In this document: piece by piece, positions 10,256 to 31,426 of the stretch
How the letters are laid out: every line of letters starts with the position of its first letter
How positions within the stretch are numbered: the first letter of the stretch is position 1
DNA from: a phage
Length of the DNA: 64,000 bases
Assembly (NCBI GenBank): GCA_012813795.1
Contig: GCA_012813795.1_4087.1
Strand: one strand, 5' to 3'
The notes under the pieces: generated by a model
Databases searched by the model: none
Seen by the model: only the letters and a program-made list of their open reading frames with translations
What the model was told of the DNA's origin: nothing
Translations under genes and position numbers: made by a program

Positions 10256-12955
10256 TTACCAATTCACATTACCAGAACTTGAAGGGAACCCAGAACTAAC
10301 TGGGAAGGAACTTCCGGCAGCGTCGAATGATGAACCAAACAGGTCTAAACGCGAACGTTTTTCTATATTAATTTCGGTTATTTGTAAATCATCAGTTTTC
10401 ACTGTACCAATCCAGTATATTGAATGAGTTTCAGCTAATTCAGTTGTTGATATGTGATAGTTTGCAATACCCTGTACTAATTTAATATACACATAAAATG
10501 TAGTATTGGCAGGATTTGCTTTCACAGTTGTTAAATCTATATTTGATATTGGTAATTTATAGTGTTTACCTGATAGCAGTACTGGTGTCTCTTCGGTGAA
10601 GTATATAATAAAACCTTGAGCAACATCTTGGGAAACAAGACATATAAATGGATTTCCTTTATCAGTCCATGCATTATAATCCGCTAATGTAGTACCATAT
10701 GTTCTAAAAATTGTTTTGTTTGTATTATCTATACTTTGAAGAATACCAAACCCAATATTAGGTAAAGCGAATGGTTGACCATCTAATGCATAGATAGGAC
10801 GTGCACCAGCTATATGGAAATTATTAAATTGGGCTGTCGCTTTATCCACTGTAGCACGGAAAAATGGAGAGTTTGTATTACCAACTGTATTAAAGAAACC
10901 TGGAATACCACCACCAATGAAGTAGAAAGAACCAGCATCATATATAGTAATACCAATACTTCCACTATCAAGATGATATGCGGTATCTGTTTTGTAATCC
11001 CCAGCTTGAACACTTTCATGTACTAAACGTTTGAACGACCATGTTGTAATATCACCAGTTCTTGTATTGACATTCAATTCAACAACTCGTACATATAAAC
11101 CACGGGCTGTAGTAGATGCTGCAAGAACACCAAAAACAGGAATATCAGTTTGTTGTGGAACAAATACAGATAATGTTTTTATTGATTCTGGTGATATATT
11201 CCATGAACTAGCAACTTTAGCAAATTCGGAATTTCGAATAGCATTCATTATATCTTGAGACATACTGATTGTACCATTATTCAGTACATTACCTTTATAA
11301 TCAAAACTAATAGGAGTTGATGTTCTATTATCTGCCACCAAAACACCACCATTAGTAGTGACCGTTGAACCAGAAATTGAACTTATAAAAATTCTAGATT
11401 CTGGTGTAGTTATAAACGCTCGGTCTGGTGTTGGTTCATAACCAGGAACAGTACCATAGTCTAGAGACTTAAATGTAAAGTTCGGTGTAGCTTTATGTAC
11501 AGCATAGGATGGATAAAAACGACCATCACCAGAACGTCTTGAATATTGTTTAGTACTGTTATTTGGTAATAACTCTACACCTACTTGGTATGAACCAACT
11601 GCTGAACCAAATCTTGGTGATACTACACCATTAATAAAATTAGTTGCTGATACACTTCTAACATTCATTAAATTAAACAATGACTGTGGTGGATATTTCG
11701 CATATGATAAGTTCAATGCTTCTGCGAGGTTTGGTGAGAATGAACAAAATGCATCACCAGTTGATGGTACATAGCAATAATTACTAAAAATATTACGACC
11801 ACCCGCGTGAAGATAAAATGGATCTTTTGTTATGCATTGACCCGTTACATTCATACTTGAACCCGTGTCATTAACAGCAACTGGTGTAGTCGTTAACATA
11901 TTATCTAATTTACATTGTTTTGTCACAACATCAAAAGTCATACTAAAACCATGTTGTGGGCGTGTGTCATATCGTCCATTTGTCATCCACATATCACCAC
12001 ATAATCTAAATCTGAATTCGGATGTACCAGATTTCTGTGCAACATATAAATCTGGATCTGTCATATAAACACCAAACCCAATAATACCACTTGGAATTAA
12101 AACGTATGGATTATCATTGGTATTTGTTGAATTTATTTTCATAGTTGGAACAATATTGTCATCATATACCATTGCATTATAAAAAGTTCTTGTGGCCCAA
12201 CCAGTAATTCTAGTAACACTATAAGTACCACCACCTGGGTTATTACTTGGACTAAAAGTAACTTTAGTAACGGATATTTTAAGAGTATTGCTTGGTGTAT
12301 CTAAACTGAAAAAGTATAATGAACCATCTTCAGCACGAATAACAAATTGTATTGCACCAAAAGGTTGTACGGCTGTATGGTCTGATAGAATAATACCAGT
12401 GTGCATTGTATCATTCATAGTACCATTATTGACTGAAACAAAAACTCTATCAATATATGTACCATCAGAATTTTCAGTTCTCACCAAACCACAAGTAATA
12501 TCATCACTGCTTGGATACAAATAAACTGCATACCCAGCACCAAAATAATTTGGTTTATATGCACGAGTAGTATTAACCATACGACTTGTATTTGTTGTAC
12601 CAACCGCCTGGGTCATATAACTATAATAAATCCCCTGTGTACTTCCATTAGTACCCGGACGTAACATTACTAAAGTGTTATCATCTTCCAAAAATAATTT
12701 TGTATTTCTGGAACTAGCATTTTCTGAAGAACCAACTGTTGTACCATTGACACCAGCAGGTAGATAGTTTTGTGTACCATAACGAGAAATGGGTAACATA
12801 CCAACCATTTCCAGCATATCATCTTGTGTATATGCATCTATTGTGAGATTGCCATTTTCATCAAATACGTTATCATTGATGCTCTGAACACTTCTCTTAC
12901 CTTTGACTGTTACATTATGTGTAACATCAATGCCACCATATATTTTCTTTGCCAT
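10256..12955 (-). CDS. Fibre-like beta-rich structural protein (tail fibre / receptor-binding candidate), paralog 1
   Basis: 899 aa; shares MLPISRYGTQNYLP ... LRPGTNGS N-terminal motifs and the conserved C-terminal domain with 6903-9671. Confidence 0.5.
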   Translation of the reverse strand: MAKKIYGGIDVTHNVTVKGKRSVQSINDNVFDENGNLTIDAYTQDDMLEMVGMLPISRYGTQNYLPAGVNGTTVGSSENASSRNTKLFLEDDNTLVMLRPGTNGSTQGIYYSYMTQAVGTTNTSRMVNTTRAYKPNYFGAGYAVYLYPSSDDITCGLVRTENSDGTYIDRVFVSVNNGTMNDTMHTGIILSDHTAVQPFGAIQFVIRAEDGSLYFFSLDTPSNTLKISVTKVTFSPSNNPGGGTYSVTRITGWATRTFYNAMVYDDNIVPTMKINSTNTNDNPYVLIPSGIIGFGVYMTDPDLYVAQKSGTSEFRFRLCGDMWMTNGRYDTRPQHGFSMTFDVVTKQCKLDNMLTTTPVAVNDTGSSMNVTGQCITKDPFYLHAGGRNIFSNYCYVPSTGDAFCSFSPNLAEALNLSYAKYPPQSLFNLMNVRSVSATNFINGVVSPRFGSAVGSYQVGVELLPNNSTKQYSRRSGDGRFYPSYAVHKATPNFTFKSLDYGTVPGYEPTPDRAFITTPESRIFISSISGSTVTTNGGVLVADNRTSTPISFDYKGNVLNNGTISMSQDIMNAIRNSEFAKVASSWNISPESIKTLSVFVPQQTDIPVFGVLAASTTARGLYVRVVELNVNTRTGDITTWSFKRLVHESVQAGDYKTDTAYHLDSGSIGITIYDAGSFYFIGGGIPGFFNTVGNTNSPFFRATVDKATAQFNNFHIAGARPIYALDGQPFALPNIGFGILQSIDNTNKTIFRTYGTTLADYNAWTDKGNPFICLVSQDVAQGFIIYFTEETPVLLSGKHYKLPISNIDLTTVKANPANTTFYVYIKLVQGIANYHISTTELAETHSIYWIGTVKTDDLQITEINIEKRSRLDLFGSSFDAAGSSFPVSSGFPSSSGNVNW

Positions 12956-12999
12956 ATATATCCCTTTTATCTAGATATCCATAGTGTATTTATAATAGT

Positions 13000-13025
13000 A
13001 TAAAAAAAGCACCCAAAGGGTGCTT
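13000..13025 (-). terminator. Intrinsic terminator candidate downstream of nrdG and small ORF
   Basis: Stem agcaccc/gggtgct (13008-13024) with loop aaa, followed on the minus strand by U7. Confidence 0.5.
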
Positions 13026-13032
13026 CTTCATA

Positions 13033-13191
13033 TTAACCGCCGTGTTTAGAAAATTCAACTGCTCTTAATTGTTTAAGTGCTTCTTTTCTGGTTGGGTGAC
13101 GACCGAGAACTTTCTTCCCTGTGTGGTCAGTAACAACCCACTCATTTCCACGTTTCTGTATCTTTTCCGAAATAATATCAAGATAACGCAT
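13033..13191 (-). CDS. Small ORF (52 aa) MRYLDIISEKIQKRGNEWVVTDHTGKKVLGRHPTRKEALKQLRAVEFSKHGG
   Basis: Below ORF-track size cutoff; ATG at 13191-13189 preceded by GGAG; start overlaps nrdG stop; ends just before terminator. Confidence 0.35.
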   Translation of the reverse strand: MRYLDIISEKIQKRGNEWVVTDHTGKKVLGRHPTRKEALKQLRAVEFSKHGG

Positions 13192-13657
13192 AATCTACTC
13201 CTTTACGAAGAATACGTTGATTATTAGAGCCTCTAAATGGTAATTCTAAATTCTTTTCTTCAAGAATAAATTTACCATCAACTAATACATCAATGTACTC
13301 TAGTATTGCGGAGGCATGATTATTTATTATTTCCTCTAAAGTATAACCACTCCAGCACCAAATATCTTTATTTGGATATTTTTCTTTTACTACTTTACAT
13401 AACTCAACAACAGTACTGATATTCTTTGGCATCAATGGATCACCACCAAGAAGTGACAACCCTTGTACATATGGCTTGTTAAGTTCATTCAGGATGATAT
13501 CAACTGTTTCAGTACTGAATTCTGAACCACTGCGATAATCCCATGCTTTTTCGTTGAAGCATTCTTCACATCCGTGGCTACACCCTGAAACAAAAAGGGA
13601 GCATCTAACTCCCTCTCCATTGACTAAATCATCCTTGATTATCGTCTGGTAATTCAT
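13178..13657 (-). CDS. nrdG: Anaerobic ribonucleotide reductase activating protein (radical SAM)
   Basis: N-terminal VNGEGVRCSLFVSGCSHGCEEC cysteine cluster typical of NrdG activases; directly downstream of nrdD. Confidence 0.85.
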   Translation of the reverse strand: MNYQTIIKDDLVNGEGVRCSLFVSGCSHGCEECFNEKAWDYRSGSEFSTETVDIILNELNKPYVQGLSLLGGDPLMPKNISTVVELCKVVKEKYPNKDIWCWSGYTLEEIINNHASAILEYIDVLVDGKFILEEKNLELPFRGSNNQRILRKGVDYALS

Positions 13658-13964
13658 CTAATATTGCACTCACTATTTCAACAAGAACATCTCCGTGACA
13701 TGATTTGGGCTTACAAAAGCACCCAAGACGCTTCCCAGCCAATTCAAGTAGTTCTTCGATAGTAACCTCACCATTATCAATTCTTTGGATAAGATACTCT
13801 CTGAACTTCTCAATCGACTCTTCTCGTGTCGGAACTATAAACTCTGCCTTTGTTTGTTTGTCATTAATGTGGGTAAATGGATTTCCCCATTTAGACCCAC
13901 GACCAATATACACATCATATGGTTCTTTATATTTGTTAACTACAATTGGTTTTAAGTCCATCAT
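13629..13964 (-). CDS. Conserved hypothetical protein with Cys/His cluster (DUF4326-like)
   Basis: [12 protein letters not shown] ... [15 protein letters not shown] motif pattern; 111 aa. Confidence 0.45.
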
Positions 13965-14323
13965 AGACCTTTAGTAAAAGTACGATTGATTACATCATCT
14001 TGTTGTTCTTTTGTTAGTGAATTGAAACGAACTGCATAACCACTAACACGAATTGTAAGTTGCGGATACTTTTCTGGATTATTTTGTGCATCAATGAGTT
14101 GTTCTTTAGATAGAACATTTACATTCAAGTGCTGACCACCTTCAATATTCGGTGCGTGTTGAATTTCCACATCACGCAGTACCTCACCATCAAAAGTACT
14201 CAAAAGTACTTCATCATCTTCGGAAATGGTCTTTGATACAATAATACGTGCAATATCATTTTCTATTAGCATGATAGTTCCACGGTGCTCACCAGACATG
14301 ACTTGTTTACCTTGAATTGACAT
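13961..14323 (-). CDS. grcA: Autonomous glycyl radical cofactor, GrcA/YfiD-like
   Basis: C-terminal [10 protein letters not shown] ... [21 protein letters not shown] ... RTFT is near-identical to the conserved GrcA glycyl-radical domain. Confidence 0.85.
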
Positions 14324-14332
14324 AATATCTCC

Positions 14333-16138
14333 TTACATGTGTTGTATACGTTGAATAACTTCAGCTTGTTTACCTTTATTGAACGGGCGACTATTTGGGG
14401 CACTAAGATATCCCGAAACTCTGCGAATAACCGACATTGTGCGTTCATTGCGGTTGTCACATACCGGACAATGGAAACCATTTTTATCTACACTAAATTC
14501 ACCCTCAAAATCACATTCAAAACACTTATCGACCTTCTGATTAATACCAAAATATGGAATTTTAGTATAAGCAAAATTTATTAATGTTTCAAGTGCTTGT
14601 ATATTATTAGCTAGATTTGGTGTTTCAACATAGCTAATATTACCACCATTGCTTAGATAAGCAAAGTTTTCCTCATAATCCCATTTAGCAAAAGGTGTAC
14701 TTTCAACCCATACTGGTTGATGGAATGAGTTAGTGATAAAGTCACGTTTCAGTACTGAAGGATGTTTTGCCTCAATACAACGTGCAAATTTATAACATAG
14801 TGATTCTGCTGGTGTACCGTAAAGACTAAATGCAATGTTACTCTCTTTTTTGAATTCATCACATTTTGCTTTCATGTAGTTCAAAATACTCATACAGAAC
14901 TCTTTACTAATAGAACCAGTGAGGATCTCTGAACACTCAGATAACCCAACATAACCAATACTGATACTAGCATAACCATTATAAAATAAATGGTCAATAG
15001 TGTCTTCAGGATCAAGACGTGCAATCGCACCTTCAGCGAAAAGTATAGGGTTTTGTTTTGCCTTTGTACCTTTTAAACGTTCTACACGGTTCATCTGTGC
15101 TCTGTAAGCAATATTCATGTGCTCATCAATCTTATCAAAGAAATCACCATCAGACTCACTCTCAAGAGCAATTAGTGGTAAGTTGATAGACACAACGCCA
15201 AGGTTGAATCTACCATTGTATTTTTCTTCTCCTTGTATATTTTCCCATTTCCCTAAGAAACTTCTGCATCCCATAGGAGTAACAGGAATAGTTGTGCTTC
15301 CAGTAACTTTTTGATTCAAAGGTACGGATACAAAATCAGGATAGATGCGTTTAGCTGCACAACGCATAGCTAATTGTTTTAAGTCATAATTACAATCAGT
15401 ACTGTTCATATTAATTCCATCCTGAAGAAAGAATATTACTTTAGGAAATACTGGAGTAATCTTATCTTTACCTAGTCCATTTTCATGTACTTTCAAATAT
15501 TGTTCAGTGATTAGTTTTTCAAATTTAGATGTACCTAATCCTAAACTCAAAGAAATGAACGCAGCCTGGCCATTAGTACTGATCATTGAGTTTGTTTGAT
15601 ATAGAATTGTTTGACAACCGTCATAAACTTCCTTACGCAACTCATCTTCGATGAATTCAGTGCTAAGATTGTATTTCTTTTGTTTTTCTAGGAGTTTATC
15701 CCATGACTTTTGTACATATGGTGCAAGGCCAGTGTCAATGTGAGCCAACGACTGACCACCGTATTGTGAGCTTGCAACAGCCTGAACGATCTGGGTTAGT
15801 ACTGTACAAGCTACCCCAAAGCTTTTTGGTTCTTCAATCTTGGCACAACCAATCATGAAGCCATTAGCAAGCATATCAGGATAATTAACTAAACAACAGT
15901 TTGTTAATGGGCTAATGTAATAGTCTAAATCATGAATATGACCGTAACCTTCATTATGCCACTTCATCAATTCATCAGGAATCACATCTTGGGAATAATG
16001 TTTAGAAAGAATACCTGCCAATAAATCACGATGTGTATTAACACATTTAGCGTCTTTATTTGCATTTTCGTTTGTTAAATCAGCGTTACTCTGGTTGAGG
16101 AAGTTAGTTACGTCCGTATATAATTTATCTATTTGCAT
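14333..16138 (-). CDS. nrdD: Anaerobic ribonucleoside-triphosphate reductase (class III), intact and uninterrupted
   Basis: 601 aa; C-terminal Zn ribbon CFECDFEGEF ... CPVCDN and glycyl radical motif RRVSGYLSAPNSRPFNKGKQAEV. Confidence 0.9.
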   Translation of the reverse strand: MQIDKLYTDVTNFLNQSNADLTNENANKDAKCVNTHRDLLAGILSKHYSQDVIPDELMKWHNEGYGHIHDLDYYISPLTNCCLVNYPDMLANGFMIGCAKIEEPKSFGVACTVLTQIVQAVASSQYGGQSLAHIDTGLAPYVQKSWDKLLEKQKKYNLSTEFIEDELRKEVYDGCQTILYQTNSMISTNGQAAFISLSLGLGTSKFEKLITEQYLKVHENGLGKDKITPVFPKVIFFLQDGINMNSTDCNYDLKQLAMRCAAKRIYPDFVSVPLNQKVTGSTTIPVTPMGCRSFLGKWENIQGEEKYNGRFNLGVVSINLPLIALESESDGDFFDKIDEHMNIAYRAQMNRVERLKGTKAKQNPILFAEGAIARLDPEDTIDHLFYNGYASISIGYVGLSECSEILTGSISKEFCMSILNYMKAKCDEFKKESNIAFSLYGTPAESLCYKFARCIEAKHPSVLKRDFITNSFHQPVWVESTPFAKWDYEENFAYLSNGGNISYVETPNLANNIQALETLINFAYTKIPYFGINQKVDKCFECDFEGEFSVDKNGFHCPVCDNRNERTMSVIRRVSGYLSAPNSRPFNKGKQAEVIQRIQHM

Positions 16139-16189
16139 TTCACATTCCTTGTATGTTATTCGTTTGGGTGAATTTATTTAACTTCAACA

Positions 16190-16240
16190 AAGAGCATTAT
16201 AGCCTCATATTGGCCTTTTTCTCTTGACCTAAATCAAGGA
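16190..16240 (-). promoter_or_regulatory. Putative FNR-dependent class II promoter of nrdD
   Basis: TTGAC-CTAA-ATCAA palindrome at 16224-16237 (9/10 match to FNR box TTGAT-N4-ATCAA) centred 41.5 bp upstream of predicted start site; perfect TATAAT on minus strand at 16201-16196. Confidence 0.45.
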
Positions 16241-16269
16241 AAAGTGCAATTGATTAAGTACTGTACAAA

Positions 16270-16294
16270 CACAAAAAGCACCACTTGGGTGCTT
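16270..16294 (-). terminator. Intrinsic terminator candidate upstream of nrdD promoter
   Basis: Stem agcacc/ggtgct (16277-16293) with 5-nt loop and U5 on the minus strand. Confidence 0.45.
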
Positions 16295-16371
16295 TATAGA
16301 ATAGACAAAATAACAACTGACCAGATTAGCATAACATATAAATTGCAATTACACAGCATCCAATGAATAGT

Positions 16372-16557
16372 TTAATTAGTCTCATCTGGACTCCATGTAA
16401 TAGTTACAGTAAATGTACCTTCCTGGAAGCCATATTCATCTTGTGGGATTTGTTCAGCTAATGGGTTAAATCTTGAATCAAAAGCTTCATGCACATCTCT
16501 TTGGATATCATATAGACTTTCACCATCATATTCTTTTTTGAAGATTTCATTCTGCAT
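16372..16557 (-). CDS. hypothetical protein
   Basis: 61-aa ORF, acidic. Confidence 0.4.
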   Translation of the reverse strand: MQNEIFKKEYDGESLYDIQRDVHEAFDSRFNPLAEQIPQDEYGFQEGTFTVTITWSPDETN

Positions 16558-28138: not shown

Positions 28139-31100
28139 ATGAAACCAATAGCTGGCTTAGATCAATTTCCATTTGTTATAGGTGGATTGCAGGTTACTGC
28201 TGCAAAGATAGAAGGGCAAGTATTTGTTAAAGAATTGTATGTTATAAAACAAAGAACATTCGATTCGTATGATTTGATATCTGAAAATTTCAAGATTTAC
28301 AAAGATATAAAAATCACAGGTAGAAATAAAGATAAATCAACATTGACGTATGATGATGACGATGCTGAAATTGCTAAATCTTTAGCAAATAATACATTTT
28401 GCATAAAAGAATCTGATGATTTTAACAAAAAATATGGTTTTGGTATACAATATCAATTGAATAAAATAAAATTACATAATGGTGAAGTGATATTTAGACA
28501 ATCCTCAATTCGACCATCAGTACTTAATGGTGTTTTCATTACACCGAGTTCATTTGAGATTGATGTTGGTCAACAACAAGTATTTGACGCGATATATGAT
28601 CCACAAAGTTGGATTAATAAAAATGGTACTTGGGATTATGATAAATCAGTTTTTGATGTGGTTTCTTTTACACAAACATCAATCACACTTCTCGCTAAAC
28701 AAGATGCCATTAATACAGAAATAAAATATTCACCTACTGGACGAGAAATAAATCGCATAGCAGTCAGTATAGGTTCAGTAGTAGATAACACTTCTATAAT
28801 TAAAAACATTTCAATAACACCTAATGTCATAAATTCCAAATTATCTGAAGATTTTACAGTTAATGTAGTTTATGATCCTATCAAATATAAATTCAAATCA
28901 GGTAAATGGTCTGTCAGTGATACATCAGTACTACAATTTGTTTCTGGTGATGGTGAAACTGCGACATTTAAACCTATCAGCGTTGGTTCTTCCACAATAA
29001 CATTCACATTAGATAAAGATAGTACAAAAACTGCAACTGCATCAGTTGAAGTATCTTATGCAGATTTAAAATCCGTCACAATATCACCAGAAAATGTAAC
29101 TGGTACTATAGGTGAAACTGGTAGTATTTCAATAAGTTATGTACCAGATAATGCACAAAAAGGTGGTTCATGGGCTATTTCTGATAAATTAATACTAAAA
29201 GAATTATCATCGACAATATCAGAATTTGATTATGAATTGGTTGGTAATGGAACAACATATGCTACATTCGTCCCATTAGCTAATTATGATGGTTCAATGA
29301 TAACTGCTAAATTTGATGTTAACTATTCAAAACTTGAAAACATTGTTCTTACACCTTCATCAGTTAGTAATCTAGTTCCAGGCGACACAGGAAAAATTAG
29401 TATTGAATATACACCAAGTACTGTTGAAACTGGTGGTACATGGTCATTCAATCCAACTGGTGTAATAGAACAAGATCTCAGCAAAAGTACGAGTACTGAA
29501 ATGTATTATAATGTATTAATCCCAGGTACATCAACTGCAACATTCCACCCAACTGCGTCATATGATGGAACTCCTAAAACTGTTTCATTTGAAGTTGGGA
29601 ATTCCGAGTTAACTGGTATTACGCTAACACCTACTACATCAACCGTAAAAATTGGTGATGATTTCTATATTGATATTACATATGAACCAAACACTGCTCT
29701 ACATGAAGGTACATGGAATACATCAGATTTTGAGAAATATGTAACACTCGAATCAGATAGTACACCTGATCGTGCACATTTTAAAGCTATAGGTGTGATT
29801 GATTCTGTTAATCTGACATATTCAAAAGGAACAATTAGTGCAACTAACAAATGTGCAGTTAATTATTCTGATTTAAAATCTATCACATTAAGTCCAACTG
29901 CAACATATGCTAAACTTGGTGATGATTTCTATGTAGATATTGCATATGATCCAGACACAGCACAACACACGGGTTCATGGAATACATCAGATTTTGAGAA
30001 ATATGTAACACTAGAATCAGATAGTACACCTGACCGTGCACACTTCAAAGCAATTGATTTAGTTGATGAAGTTGATTTGGTATATTCGAATGGTAATATA
30101 AGTGATACGAATTATTGTGGAGTTAGTCGTCCACCATTAATTTCAGTTTCATTGTCACCTTCTTCTGAAAAAGTTAAAGTTGGTGATTCCTTTAATGTGA
30201 AGATTACATATAACCCTAATACTGCTCAACATTACGGTGAATGGAATTTGGATGAAATAAAAGAATATCTTACATATGATTCGGATCTTAGTGTTTATGA
30301 TGTGGCTGTGTTTGATGTTATTAAACGTTCTGAAACACCAATAGAATTGAAATTTACAAGTGCAGGTAAAACTGCAACAAACACTTGTGAATTTGAAGAA
30401 GCTGTGTTAACCGGAATTTCATTGAAAATACAAGAAAATACGCCAATATACGACAGCCTATATGTTGTACCATATAAAGGTGACATATATATTGATGTTC
30501 TACCTATTCCAGCCGACGCAAAATTACCAGACGATATTGGAACCATCACTGATAATACGGGATTATATGATTTAACGTTTTTTGATTTTTTGAGTTTTAA
30601 TAAAGAAAAAAGTACAAATCACCGTTTGTATTTTGATTTTGTTTCATCATTTGATGAGTATATGTATTTTATTGAGGAATCTTCAAAAGGATTAATATTC
30701 ACATATACACTGTCTAATGGTATGACGGTAGACTCACCGGCAATGGTAACAAATTTTCCAGAACTGACGAAAGTCACCCTTGTGCCATCATCTGGAAAAT
30801 GTGATGTTAACTCAATAATAAAATGCGAGGCAACACTTGATAATGGTATGTCAACTTATTATATTAATCCGTTGAGTACTTATACAAGTGAACACGAGGA
30901 TTATTTGGTAATTGAAGATAGAACATCCTTTCAGCCGTTTGATGAATTCCTTGAACCAATTGAAATTGTAGGTAAACTTCCAACAAATATATATGTACCA
31001 GATGGTAATTACGTATATTTCACATATACACTATCAACCACACCTGCCCAACCGTTGATTGATTATAATATTTACATATATGATAGTAATGAATGTATAA

Positions 31101-31426
31101 AAGGACGTATAAAAAATCCAACAGACGTAGTTAACATAAAATATATGAATGTCTTTTTCTTTGACATAGAGAATAATCCACCAAATGCTTTATATAGAGG
31201 AAAAATGGAAGGTGGTATTCCTGTTACGTTTCAATATGACACCCAAAATTCTAGATTAAATTCGTATACTTATATGGTACAGGGGGTAACTGATGGACCA
31301 ATAACTCTAAAATACACTTCATCTGCTACTGGTGTTATTAGAACTGCACAAGTTGATGTTACTGGACCAATGACTGATGATAGTAATAAAACTGATGAGG
31401 GGGGTGATGGTGATTTACTTAAATGA
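28139..31426 (+). CDS. Giant Ig-like (Big_2/Hoc-like) repeat protein 1
   Basis: 1095 aa built from ~85-90-aa repeats with Y.DLKS ... GD.FY.DI.Y.PDTA.H.G.W ... F.A pattern; AAGGAGA upstream; two near-identical 264-bp tandem DNA repeats inside. Confidence 0.65.
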   Translation: MKPIAGLDQFPFVIGGLQVTAAKIEGQVFVKELYVIKQRTFDSYDLISENFKIYKDIKITGRNKDKSTLTYDDDDAEIAKSLANNTFCIKESDDFNKKYGFGIQYQLNKIKLHNGEVIFRQSSIRPSVLNGVFITPSSFEIDVGQQQVFDAIYDPQSWINKNGTWDYDKSVFDVVSFTQTSITLLAKQDAINTEIKYSPTGREINRIAVSIGSVVDNTSIIKNISITPNVINSKLSEDFTVNVVYDPIKYKFKSGKWSVSDTSVLQFVSGDGETATFKPISVGSSTITFTLDKDSTKTATASVEVSYADLKSVTISPENVTGTIGETGSISISYVPDNAQKGGSWAISDKLILKELSSTISEFDYELVGNGTTYATFVPLANYDGSMITAKFDVNYSKLENIVLTPSSVSNLVPGDTGKISIEYTPSTVETGGTWSFNPTGVIEQDLSKSTSTEMYYNVLIPGTSTATFHPTASYDGTPKTVSFEVGNSELTGITLTPTTSTVKIGDDFYIDITYEPNTALHEGTWNTSDFEKYVTLESDSTPDRAHFKAIGVIDSVNLTYSKGTISATNKCAVNYSDLKSITLSPTATYAKLGDDFYVDIAYDPDTAQHTGSWNTSDFEKYVTLESDSTPDRAHFKAIDLVDEVDLVYSNGNISDTNYCGVSRPPLISVSLSPSSEKVKVGDSFNVKITYNPNTAQHYGEWNLDEIKEYLTYDSDLSVYDVAVFDVIKRSETPIELKFTSAGKTATNTCEFEEAVLTGISLKIQENTPIYDSLYVVPYKGDIYIDVLPIPADAKLPDDIGTITDNTGLYDLTFFDFLSFNKEKSTNHRLYFDFVSSFDEYMYFIEESSKGLIFTYTLSNGMTVDSPAMVTNFPELTKVTLVPSSGKCDVNSIIKCEATLDNGMSTYYINPLSTYTSEHEDYLVIEDRTSFQPFDEFLEPIEIVGKLPTNIYVPDGNYVYFTYTLSTTPAQPLIDYNIYIYDSNECIKGRIKNPTDVVNIKYMNVFFFDIENNPPNALYRGKMEGGIPVTFQYDTQNSRLNSYTYMVQGVTDGPITLKYTSSATGVIRTAQVDVTGPMTDDSNKTDEGGDGDLLK

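What the first reader, a model, noticed from the sequence alone, without database searches (positions are those of the whole stretch)
16190..16240. Near-consensus FNR box centred at -41.5 upstream of phage nrdD
In the 230-bp region upstream of nrdD, the palindrome TTGAC-CTAA-ATCAA (16224-16237; TTGAT-TTAG-GTCAA on the coding strand) matches the E. coli FNR consensus TTGAT-N4-ATCAA at 9 of 10 positions. A perfect TATAAT lies on the minus strand at 16201-16196, placing the FNR site 41.5 bp upstream of the predicted start site, which is the canonical class II activation geometry. This implies the phage anaerobic reductase (nrdD, nrdG and the GrcA-like gene downstream) is wired into the host oxygen-sensing regulator, as host nrdDG is in enterobacteria.
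Basis: partly seen in the sequence, partly recalled or inferred. Interest (0 to 1): 0.6.

Follow-up and report, generated by a model that had tools for sequence, protein, structure and literature searches.

The report
Host oxygen-sensor site before phage nrdD
A giant E. coli phage carries, just upstream of its oxygen-sensitive DNA-precursor enzyme genes, a binding site for the host's oxygen sensor FNR; the site is conserved in all 18 related giant-phage genomes compared, so the phage probably switches these genes on only when oxygen is absent.

Summary
TTGATTTAGGTCAA (minus strand 16237-16224) matches the FNR consensus at 9 of 10 positions. A perfect TATAAT follows 22 nt downstream (16201-16196) with no -35 hexamer, which puts the site at about -41.5. 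The window alone does not prove function: such boxes occur at the chance rate, although this is the only intergenic one. Comparison with relatives decides it. The window is an Asteriusvirus jumbo phage, 98% identical to Escherichia phage A4. All 17 other Rak2-like genomes compared keep a TTGA-N6-TCAA box upstream of nrdD, a perfect consensus in ten of them, while the flanks diverge. Ten of them keep TATAAT at the same 22-nt spacing. FNR-like boxes also precede nrdD in four unrelated phages whose nrdD has its own upstream region. No phage FNR/CRP homologue, no NrdR boxes and no similarity to E. coli DNA were found. The best reading is a class II FNR-activated sigma-70 promoter driving nrdD, a grcA-like gene, DUF4326 and nrdG. 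It matches this clade's late-promoter core, so control is probably dual. The mechanism is textbook, but I found no report of it in phages. Nothing was tested experimentally.

The parts
16224..16237 (-). FNR-type inverted repeat TTGATTTAGGTCAA (9/10 to TTGAT-N4-ATCAA); centre at 16230.5
   Evidence: The TTGA...TCAA core is invariant in all 18 Rak2-like genomes compared, and ten of them carry a perfect consensus.
16202..16223 (-). 22-nt spacer with no recognisable -35 hexamer (AGAGAA at 17-nt spacing, 1/6 to TTGACA)
   Evidence: The sigma-70 scan finds no -35/-10 pair on the minus strand in 16139-16371. The spacer sequence diverges between lineages, but its length is fixed at 22 nt, or 23 nt in some genera.
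16196..16201 (-). Consensus -10 hexamer TATAAT
   Evidence: It is identical and at the same spacing in A4, 121Q, PBECO4, WPEC3, UE-S1, ph0011, RaK2, K64-1, Muenster, EJP2 and Hallingskeid.
16188..16189 (-). Predicted transcription start, 7-8 nt after the -10; not mapped
   Evidence: Inferred from standard sigma-70 geometry. No transcript data were available.
16174..16180 (-). Invariant TAAATAA, 42 nt upstream of the ATG; probably a clade-specific late-type promoter core
   Evidence: It is invariant except for its last base and lies exactly 43 nt from the box in all 18 Rak2-like genomes. nTAAATA sits 31-56 nt (63 in one case) upstream of many A4 structural genes. The CBB late-promoter list has ATAAATA and CTAAATA (PMC5259590).
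16145..16150 (-). Shine-Dalgarno AAGGAA, 6 nt before the nrdD ATG
   Evidence: Read from the sequence; conserved as AAGGA/GGAG in relatives.
16266..16295 (-). Intrinsic terminator (AAAGCACC-CAAGT-GGTGCTTT plus a T-run) that insulates the nrdD operon from upstream transcription
   Evidence: It is conserved in relatives, and EJP2 has a different stem sequence that still pairs.
14333..16138 (-). nrdD, anaerobic ribonucleoside-triphosphate reductase (601 aa, no ATP cone)
   Evidence: Pfam NRDD 7e-163. NCBIfam NF006732 scores 766 bits against a cut-off of 657.
13961..14323 (-). grcA-like glycyl-radical 'spare part' protein (120 aa)
   Evidence: Pfam Gly_radical. The best NCBIfam match is GrcA at 126.7 bits, below the cut-off of 170.
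13629..13964 (-). DUF4326 protein (111 aa)
   Evidence: Pfam PF14216, 9e-25.
13178..13657 (-). nrdG, radical-SAM activase of NrdD
   Evidence: NCBIfam TIGR02491 scores 200.8 bits against a cut-off of 126.
13002..13025 (-). Terminator that ends the operon, after a 52-aa ORF at 13033-13191
   Evidence: AAGCACCCTTTGGGTGCTTTTTTT on the minus strand.

Best explanation
This is a class II FNR-activated promoter read by host sigma-70 RNA polymerase. When oxygen is absent, the host's [4Fe-4S] FNR dimer binds TTGATTTAGGTCAA, centred about 41.5 bp upstream of the start. That position overlaps where a -35 element would normally sit. FNR recruits polymerase to a promoter that has a consensus -10 but no -35. 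Transcription then runs through nrdD, the grcA-like gene, DUF4326, nrdG and a 52-aa ORF to the terminator near 13002-13025. A terminator immediately upstream (16266-16295) blocks read-through, so this promoter region controls the roughly 3.2-kb unit. In air FNR is inactive, and the oxygen-labile glycyl-radical enzymes are not made from this promoter. An invariant TAAATAA 20 bp further downstream is probably a second, late-type promoter read with the phage's gp55-like sigma factor. Shown here: the sequence elements, their geometry, their conservation, and the absence of alternative elements. Inferred, not shown: FNR binding, the start site and oxygen dependence.
For: The box, spacing and -10 are as described, and no -35 is present. 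It is the only intergenic box with at most 1 mismatch in the window. It is the only one with class II geometry outside a gene in 164 kb of this or the near-identical A4 genome, about 46% of it. All 17 other Rak2-like genomes examined keep TTGA-N6-TCAA upstream of nrdD. Their recorded hosts are E. coli, Klebsiella, Salmonella, Yersinia, Erwinia, Pectobacterium, Cronobacter and, for one, Xanthomonas. Ten of them have a perfect consensus. Across 13 non-redundant sequences the box core carries 2.0 bits per position, against 0.6-0.9 in the flanks. EJP2 keeps the box, the spacing and the -10 although the surrounding sequence is largely different. Both half-sites have the T that separates FNR sites from CRP sites (sequence, plus established knowledge). 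tblastn with E. coli FNR finds no homologue in any Rak2-like phage. The phage's early promoters are plain sigma-70 plus UP-element promoters, so host polymerase is used. Four unrelated phages whose nrdD has its own upstream region also carry a box with at most 1 mismatch within 100 bp: phAPEC8 and AMO3598 with exactly 22 nt to TAGAAT or TAAAAT, Aeromonas phiA019 with 21 nt, and a T5-like phage. Five phages whose nrdD sits inside an operon have none. Literature: the consensus is TTGATnnnnATCAA, 19 of 23 FNR-activated promoters lie at -41.5 +/- 4, host yfiD (grcA) is directly FNR-activated, and nrdD has an FNR ChIP-seq peak and is listed as FNR-activated with nitrate/nitrite (PMC3688515).
Against: No binding, transcript or oxygen data exist for any of these phages. 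Within the window alone the composite motif is expected 0.6 times by chance. A consensus -10 could give some FNR-independent transcription. The conserved TAAATAA suggests a second, possibly oxygen-independent route to expression. In the Mimasvirus and Eneladusvirus phages the -10 is weaker and shifted by 1 nt, and in Yersinia phage fHe-Yen9-04 it is poor (TTGAAT) although the box is perfect. What stays strictly invariant is the distance from the box to TAAATAA. It is unknown whether these phages alter host polymerase early in infection in a way that would block class II activation.
Confidence: 0.72

Rival explanations
1. FNR binds the box but acts mainly, or additionally, on the downstream TAAATAA late-type promoter from a class I-like position. 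If TAAATA occupies -11 to -6, as in the T4 late TATAAATA box (recalled from memory), the box centre lies at -61.5. FNR would then contact the polymerase alpha subunit while the phage sigma reads the -10.
For: The box-to-TAAATAA distance is exactly 43 nt in all 18 Rak2-like genomes, including those where the sigma-70 -10 has shifted or decayed. TAAATA is the late-promoter core in this clade. The two putative starts are about 20 bp apart, so the box faces the same side of the helix for both. FNR can act from about -61.5 (PMC3688515).
Against: Few FNR promoters use class I positions (PMC3688515). I know of no precedent for FNR acting with a gp55-type sigma. A perfect TATAAT at exactly 22 nt is kept in 11 of the 18 genomes, which the class I reading does not need. 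The fixed distance could simply reflect two adjacent constrained elements with no room for insertions or deletions.
Confidence: 0.12
2. The palindrome is bound by a protein other than FNR, either host CRP or an unidentified phage-encoded dimeric regulator, and the resemblance to the FNR consensus is coincidental or mimicry.
For: Binding was not tested. Jumbo phages encode hundreds of proteins of unknown function. CRP and FNR sites differ at only one position per half-site.
Against: All 18 Rak2-like genomes keep T, not G, at the discriminating position, and the window site is only 6/10 to TGTGA-N6-TCACA. No CRP/FNR-family protein is detectable in these phages. The same box appears in unrelated phages that share only the host group and the nrdD gene, which fits a host factor. 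The -41.5 geometry with no -35 is what CRP/FNR-family activators use.
Confidence: 0.07
3. The match is a chance occurrence with no regulatory role. nrdD is transcribed from the bare -10, from the late-type promoter, or by read-through.
For: Boxes with at most 1 mismatch occur at the chance rate in the window (11 against 9.85), and the composite motif is expected 0.6 times per 64 kb.
Against: The box core is invariant in all 18 genomes compared while the flanking and spacer sequences diverge. Ten relatives have a better, perfect consensus. The site recurs in unrelated phages. A conserved terminator blocks read-through.
Confidence: 0.02

Closest known systems
Class II FNR-activated promoters of E. 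coli (for example dmsA, narG, nirB, ydfZ; yfiD/grcA at -40.5)
   Same: A TTGAT-N4-ATCAA-type site centred near -41.5, overlapping and replacing the -35; a sigma-70 -10; and downstream genes that work only without oxygen (PMC3688515). The phage operon even contains a grcA-like gene, and host grcA (yfiD) is itself FNR-activated.
   Different: It lies in the genome of a lytic jumbo phage and shows no DNA similarity to any E. coli genome. It is followed 20 bp downstream by a phage late-type promoter motif.
Host nrdDG promoter of E. coli and Salmonella (FNR plus NrdR control)
   Same: The same enzyme pair (NrdD and NrdG) is placed under the same oxygen sensor (PMC4009431; PMC2892513).
   Different: The host promoter has two FNR-like boxes 31 bp apart (TTGAGCTACATCAA and TTGATGCAAAGCAC) and two NrdR boxes scoring 13/16. 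From memory, the literature places the FNR sites at -64.5 and -33.5. The phage has one box at -41.5 and nothing NrdR-like above background. The wiring looks independently built, not copied.
Lytic cyanophage genes controlled by the host PhoBR system through pho boxes
   Same: A lytic phage places host-sensor binding sites upstream of its own metabolic genes, so that they respond to the host's environment (PMC10976474).
   Different: The sensor (phosphate rather than oxygen), the transcription-factor family, the host group and the target genes all differ. The cyanophage case has experimental support and this one does not.
T4 nrdD/nrdG
   Same: Homologous anaerobic reductase genes in a lytic coliphage, about 43% identical at the protein level.
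   Different: T4 nrdD directly follows gene 49 with no intergenic region, and no FNR-like box lies upstream. The same holds for a T4-like Klebsiella phage, rV5, A7_1 and a FelixO1-like phage.

Membership tests
Class II FNR-activated sigma-70 promoter | Inverted repeat matching TTGAT-N4-ATCAA | tested here: met
   9/10 in the window, with the core TTGA/TCAA at 8/8. Ten relatives are 10/10.
Class II FNR-activated sigma-70 promoter | Half-sites of FNR type (TTGA) rather than CRP type (GTGA) | tested here: met
   T is present at the discriminating position on both arms in all 18 Rak2-like genomes. The window site is 6/10 to the CRP consensus.
Class II FNR-activated sigma-70 promoter | Site centred about 41.5 bp upstream of the transcription start | tested here: inconclusive
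   The geometry relative to the -10 is exact: a 22-nt gap gives -41.5 if TATAAT is at -12 to -7. The start site itself is not mapped.
Class II FNR-activated sigma-70 promoter | Recognisable -10 with a weak or absent -35 | tested here: met
   TATAAT is 6/6. The best -35 candidate is 1/6, and the sigma-70 scan finds no pair in the gap.
Class II FNR-activated sigma-70 promoter | Activity requires FNR and the absence of oxygen | not testable with these tools
   This needs reporter or transcript assays in wild-type and fnr-mutant hosts, with and without oxygen.
Class II FNR-activated sigma-70 promoter | The phage uses host sigma-70 polymerase for at least part of infection | tested here: met
   The A4 early region carries dozens of UP-element/TTGCA-N17-TATAAT promoters. 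PMC5259590 reports RpoD-like promoters in the relative CBB.
Host-type nrdDG promoter (dual FNR sites plus NrdR boxes) | Two FNR sites about 31 bp apart | tested here: not met
   There is only one box. The 14-mer 31 bp upstream has 5 mismatches (read from the sequence). In E. coli both boxes were confirmed.
Host-type nrdDG promoter (dual FNR sites plus NrdR boxes) | Tandem NrdR boxes | tested here: not met
   The E. coli boxes score 13/16 twice. The phage regions score at most 11/16, which equals the background for 233-bp chunks of the window.
Rak2-like late promoter (T4-late-like) | TAAATA core about 30-60 nt upstream of the start codon | tested here: met
   TAAATAA lies 42 nt upstream of the nrdD ATG. 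The same core sits 31-56 nt (63 in one case) upstream of A4 structural genes. The CBB list has ATAAATA and CTAAATA.
Rak2-like late promoter (T4-late-like) | Transcription by the phage gp55-like sigma late in infection | not testable with these tools
   This needs timed transcript mapping.

The most novel reading that the evidence does not exclude
One host FNR site serves two tandem promoters read by different sigma factors. It would act on a sigma-70 promoter from -41.5 (class II) and on a phage late-sigma TAAATA promoter from about -61.5 (class I-like). The box-to-TAAATAA distance of 43 nt is identical in all 18 Rak2-like genomes compared. Host oxygen sensing would then feed into phage late transcription, and FNR wiring of nrdD would be a general, independently evolved trait of enterobacterial phages (Rak2-like, phAPEC8-like, Aeromonas and T5-like).
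Probability: 0.15. Interest if true: 0.75.

Novelty: new member of a known kind. Interest (0 to 1): 0.5.

Why it matters
If true, a large clade of lytic gut and plant-pathogen phages reads the host's oxygen sensor directly. They would make their oxygen-labile ribonucleotide reductase, its activase and a glycyl-radical spare part only where these proteins can work. That would be a clear enterobacterial example of a lytic phage tying a metabolic gene module to a host environmental regulator, comparable to PhoB-controlled genes in cyanophages. The model makes simple predictions about phage gene expression and fitness in the anaerobic gut compared with aerated laboratory culture. This matters for phage therapy candidates in this clade, many of which were isolated on pathogenic E. 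coli and Klebsiella. It also provides a compact, conserved natural oxygen-responsive promoter of about 50 bp. The mechanism itself is textbook, so the interest lies in the phage context and its breadth, not in a new principle.

Tried and rejected
(1) I scanned IMG/VR for TTGAT-N4-RTCAA-N22-TATAAT. Chance matches dominate, so the result is uninformative.

(2) The search for related loci with NrdD in viral contigs returned only the 121Q genome.

(3) I tested a 5'-UTR hairpin presenting TAAATAA in its loop. The arms differ between lineages and sometimes pair, but predicted stabilities run from 0 to -7.8 kcal/mol and four lineages form no hairpin. I rejected it as the main explanation.

(4) NrdR boxes: none above background.

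(5) CRP site: rejected on the discriminating bases.

(6) A phage-encoded FNR/CRP homologue: none found by tblastn.

(7) Recent capture of a host promoter: no blastn match in 5,426 E. coli genomes.

(8) A known RNA family in the gap: only a sub-threshold chance hit.

(9) The CBB-type 'middle' promoter (TGAAACG-N13-TGnTATAAT): the nrdD upstream sequence does not fit it, and nrdD (orf141) appears in none of the CBB promoter tables.

(10) Five literature searches found no report of FNR control of a phage nrdD. The main survey of phage ribonucleotide reductases mentions neither FNR, NrdR nor promoters. The library lacks most subscription journals, so this absence is not proof.

Full report
**What is there**

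On the coding (minus) strand the gap upstream of nrdD holds these elements in order:
- the stop codon of a 61-aa ORF (16372-16557), overlapped by a 19-codon leftover ORF (16385-16326);
- an intrinsic terminator at 16295-16266;
- TTGATTTAGGTCAA at 16237-16224;
- 22 nt with no -35-like hexamer;
- TATAAT at 16201-16196;
- 15 nt, then TAAATAA at 16180-16174;
- AAGGAA at 16150-16145, then the ATG at 16138.

The genes that follow are nrdD, a grcA-like glycyl-radical protein, DUF4326 and nrdG. nrdD and nrdG pass the NCBIfam equivalog cut-offs. The grcA-like protein matches GrcA best but falls below its cut-off. After them come a 52-aa ORF and a terminator near 13002-13025. The unit is therefore bracketed by two terminators.

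**Is it more than chance?**

Within the window, no:
- Boxes with at most 1 mismatch occur 11 times against 9.85 expected.
- The composite of box, 21-23 nt and a good -10 occurs twice against 0.6 expected.

Position and conservation point the other way:
- The nrdD box is the only one of the 11 that lies outside a gene.
- No other intergenic box with class II geometry exists in a further 100 kb of the near-identical phage A4.
- The box lies directly upstream of the gene one would name in advance as an FNR target.

**Identity and comparison with relatives**

The window is an Asteriusvirus, a Rak2-like jumbo phage. It is 98% identical to Escherichia phage A4, which was isolated on a gut E. coli strain.

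I extracted the nrdD upstream region from 17 other Rak2-like genomes:
- A4, 121Q, PBECO4, WPEC3, UE-S1, ph0011 and EJP2 (Escherichia)
- RaK2, K64-1 and Muenster (Klebsiella)
- Munch (Salmonella)
- fHe-Yen9-04 (Yersinia)
- pEa_SNUABM_12 and Hallingskeid (Erwinia)
- CBB (Pectobacterium)
- GAP32 (Cronobacter)
- XbC2 (recorded host Xanthomonas)

All 17 keep TTGA-N6-TCAA upstream of nrdD, and ten have a perfect TTGAT-N4-ATCAA. Anchored on the box, across 13 non-redundant sequences, the eight core positions carry 2.0 bits each. The upstream flank, the spacer and the downstream region carry 0.6-0.9 bits.

Ten of the 17 keep TATAAT after exactly 22 nt, as the window does. These include EJP2 and Hallingskeid, whose surrounding sequence is largely different. 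Munch has TGATATAAT after 23 nt. The Mimasvirus and Eneladusvirus phages have TATTAT or TATTTT after 23 nt. One Yersinia phage has only TTGAAT. This is the pattern of a site under purifying selection, not of a chance match.

**Which protein binds it?**

- Both half-sites have TTGA, the FNR-specific form, rather than the GTGA of CRP, in every genome. That this base discriminates the two is established knowledge.
- tblastn with E. coli FNR against 50,697 phage records finds no homologue in any jumbo phage of this clade.
- These phages' early promoters are ordinary sigma-70 promoters with UP elements (PMC5259590). Host polymerase, and hence a host activator, is therefore available.
- Per PMC3688515, FNR-activated promoters cluster at -41.5 +/- 4 (19 of 23), host yfiD/grcA is directly FNR-activated (site at -40.5), and nrdD has an FNR ChIP-seq peak and is listed as FNR-activated with nitrate/nitrite.

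**Relation to the host promoter**

The E. coli nrdDG upstream region has two FNR-like boxes 31 bp apart and two NrdR boxes scoring 13/16. The phage region has one box, NrdR scores at background level, and no blastn similarity to 5,426 E. coli genomes. The phage has reached the same regulatory logic with a different and simpler architecture.

**Beyond this clade**

I sampled nine unrelated phage nrdD loci.
- Four have their own upstream region, and each carries a box with at most 1 mismatch within about 100 bp of the start:
  - phAPEC8: TTGATTTTCCTCAA, then 22 nt, then TAGAAT.
  - AMO3598: TTGACTAAGATCAA, then 22 nt, then TAAAAT, although a terminator-like hairpin follows.
  - Aeromonas phiA019: TTGATTTGGGTCAA, then 21 nt, then TGATAAAAT.
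  - T5-like DaisyDussoix: TTGACTCAGATCAA, with non-canonical geometry.
- Five have nrdD abutting the previous gene and carry no box: T4, a T4-like Klebsiella phage, rV5, A7_1 and a FelixO1-like phage.

The sample is small, but it suggests that FNR wiring of phage nrdD recurs.

TAAATAA at 16180-16174 is invariant except for its last base, and lies exactly 43 nt from the box, in all 18 genomes, even where the sigma-70 -10 has shifted or weakened.
- nTAAATA sits 31-56 nt (63 in one case) upstream of many A4 structural genes.
- The published CBB late-promoter list consists of ATAAATA and CTAAATA variants. CBB also encodes a gp55-like sigma factor.
- A perfect TATAAATA precedes the next gene in the window, at 12987-12994.

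The most likely reading is a second, late-type promoter 20 bp downstream of the FNR-dependent one. A hairpin explanation was tested and found weak. If TAAATA occupies -11 to -6, as in T4 late promoters (from memory), the FNR box would sit at -61.5, a class I position. The speculative 'one site, two promoters' reading rests on this.

**Mechanism**

The best-supported model (confidence 0.72) is as follows.
- Without oxygen, host FNR binds at -41.5 and recruits sigma-70 polymerase to a promoter that lacks a -35. This switches on nrdD, the grcA-like gene, DUF4326 and nrdG.
- In air this promoter is silent.
- The late-type promoter may give additional expression that is independent of oxygen or boosted by FNR.

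Shown here: the elements, their geometry and conservation, and the absence of rival elements. Inferred: binding, the start site and oxygen dependence.

**Novelty**

- None of the GenBank records examined annotates a promoter at this position.
- The CBB paper lists no promoter for nrdD.
- The main bioinformatic survey of phage ribonucleotide reductases does not mention FNR, NrdR or promoters.
- Five full-text searches found no report.

The library is incomplete, so prior description cannot be excluded. The mechanism is textbook. The new part is its presence, and its clade-wide conservation, in lytic jumbo phages. The closest conceptual precedent is control of cyanophage genes by the host PhoB regulator (PMC10976474).

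**Verdict**

It is a new member of a known kind, of moderate interest, and easy to test.

Noticed in passing
whole window (e.g. 16257-16262); also L147, L148, L006, L009, L010, L133, L142-L146: The palindrome AGTACT occurs 165 times in the window against 17.3 +/- 4.3 expected, and CAGTACTG 55 times against 0.7 expected. It lies in genes in all three frames and in intergenic DNA, with extended consensus ttCAGTACTGaa. The density is 1.7-4.6 per kb in every Rak2-like genome sampled, but 0-0.3 per kb in phAPEC8, T4, a T5-like phage and E. coli. It is built into A4 early promoters (AAAAAGTACTTGCA and tAGTACTGTATAAT). No paper in the library holds both 'AGTACT' and 'jumbo'. Its function is unknown. 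This deserves its own follow-up.
   Followed up: partly
window 16174-16180 (minus strand): An invariant TAAATAA lies 42 nt upstream of the nrdD ATG and exactly 43 nt downstream of the FNR box in all 18 Rak2-like genomes. It matches the clade's late-promoter core, so it is probably a second promoter.
   Followed up: partly
L134 pos 1419; L150 pos 307; L136 pos 1104; L138 pos 1324: FNR-like boxes with at most 1 mismatch lie upstream of nrdD in unrelated phages: phAPEC8, AMO3598, Aeromonas phiA019 and T5-like DaisyDussoix. The first three have a -10-like hexamer 21-22 nt downstream. Phages whose nrdD sits inside an operon (T4, rV5, A7_1, FelixO1-like, a T4-like Klebsiella phage) have none.
   Followed up: partly
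window 16326-16385 (minus strand): A 19-codon ORF (MRLIKLFIGCCVIAIYMLC) overlaps the stop codon of the upstream gene. In 121Q, PBECO4 and RaK2 the same position encodes a membrane peptide of about 38-42 aa. The window and A4 appear to carry a truncated version.
   Followed up: no
window 12987-12994 (minus strand): A perfect T4-type late promoter box TATAAATA follows the operon terminator, 39 nt upstream of the 899-aa gene at 10256-12955.
   Followed up: no
window 28560-28573 (+ strand): This is the second composite match in the window: TTGATGTTGGTCAA, then 21 nt, then TATGAT. It lies 420 nt inside the 1095-aa gene at 28139-31426 and is probably a chance match.
   Followed up: no
L133 1422-1445; the same position in L141-L144: The Mimasvirus and Eneladusvirus phages carry a perfect inverted repeat (ATACCCC-N7-GGGGTAT) between the FNR box and the -10, running into the -10 itself. 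It could be a second operator or a structural element.
   Followed up: no
L004, L005, L006 versus window 13961-14323: The grcA-like gene is present in the window, A4, ph0011, UE-S1, the RaK2 group, Munch and the Eneladusvirus phages. It is absent from PBECO4, 121Q and WPEC3, where nrdD is followed directly by DUF4326.
   Followed up: no
L144 (Xanthomonas phage XbC2): A Mimasvirus recorded as infecting Xanthomonas keeps a perfect enterobacterial-type FNR box and an nrdD 87% identical to that of the Erwinia phage pEa_SNUABM_12, like Cronobacter phage GAP32. Either the Xanthomonas host has an FNR-type regulator with this specificity, or the recorded host is not the natural one.
   Followed up: no
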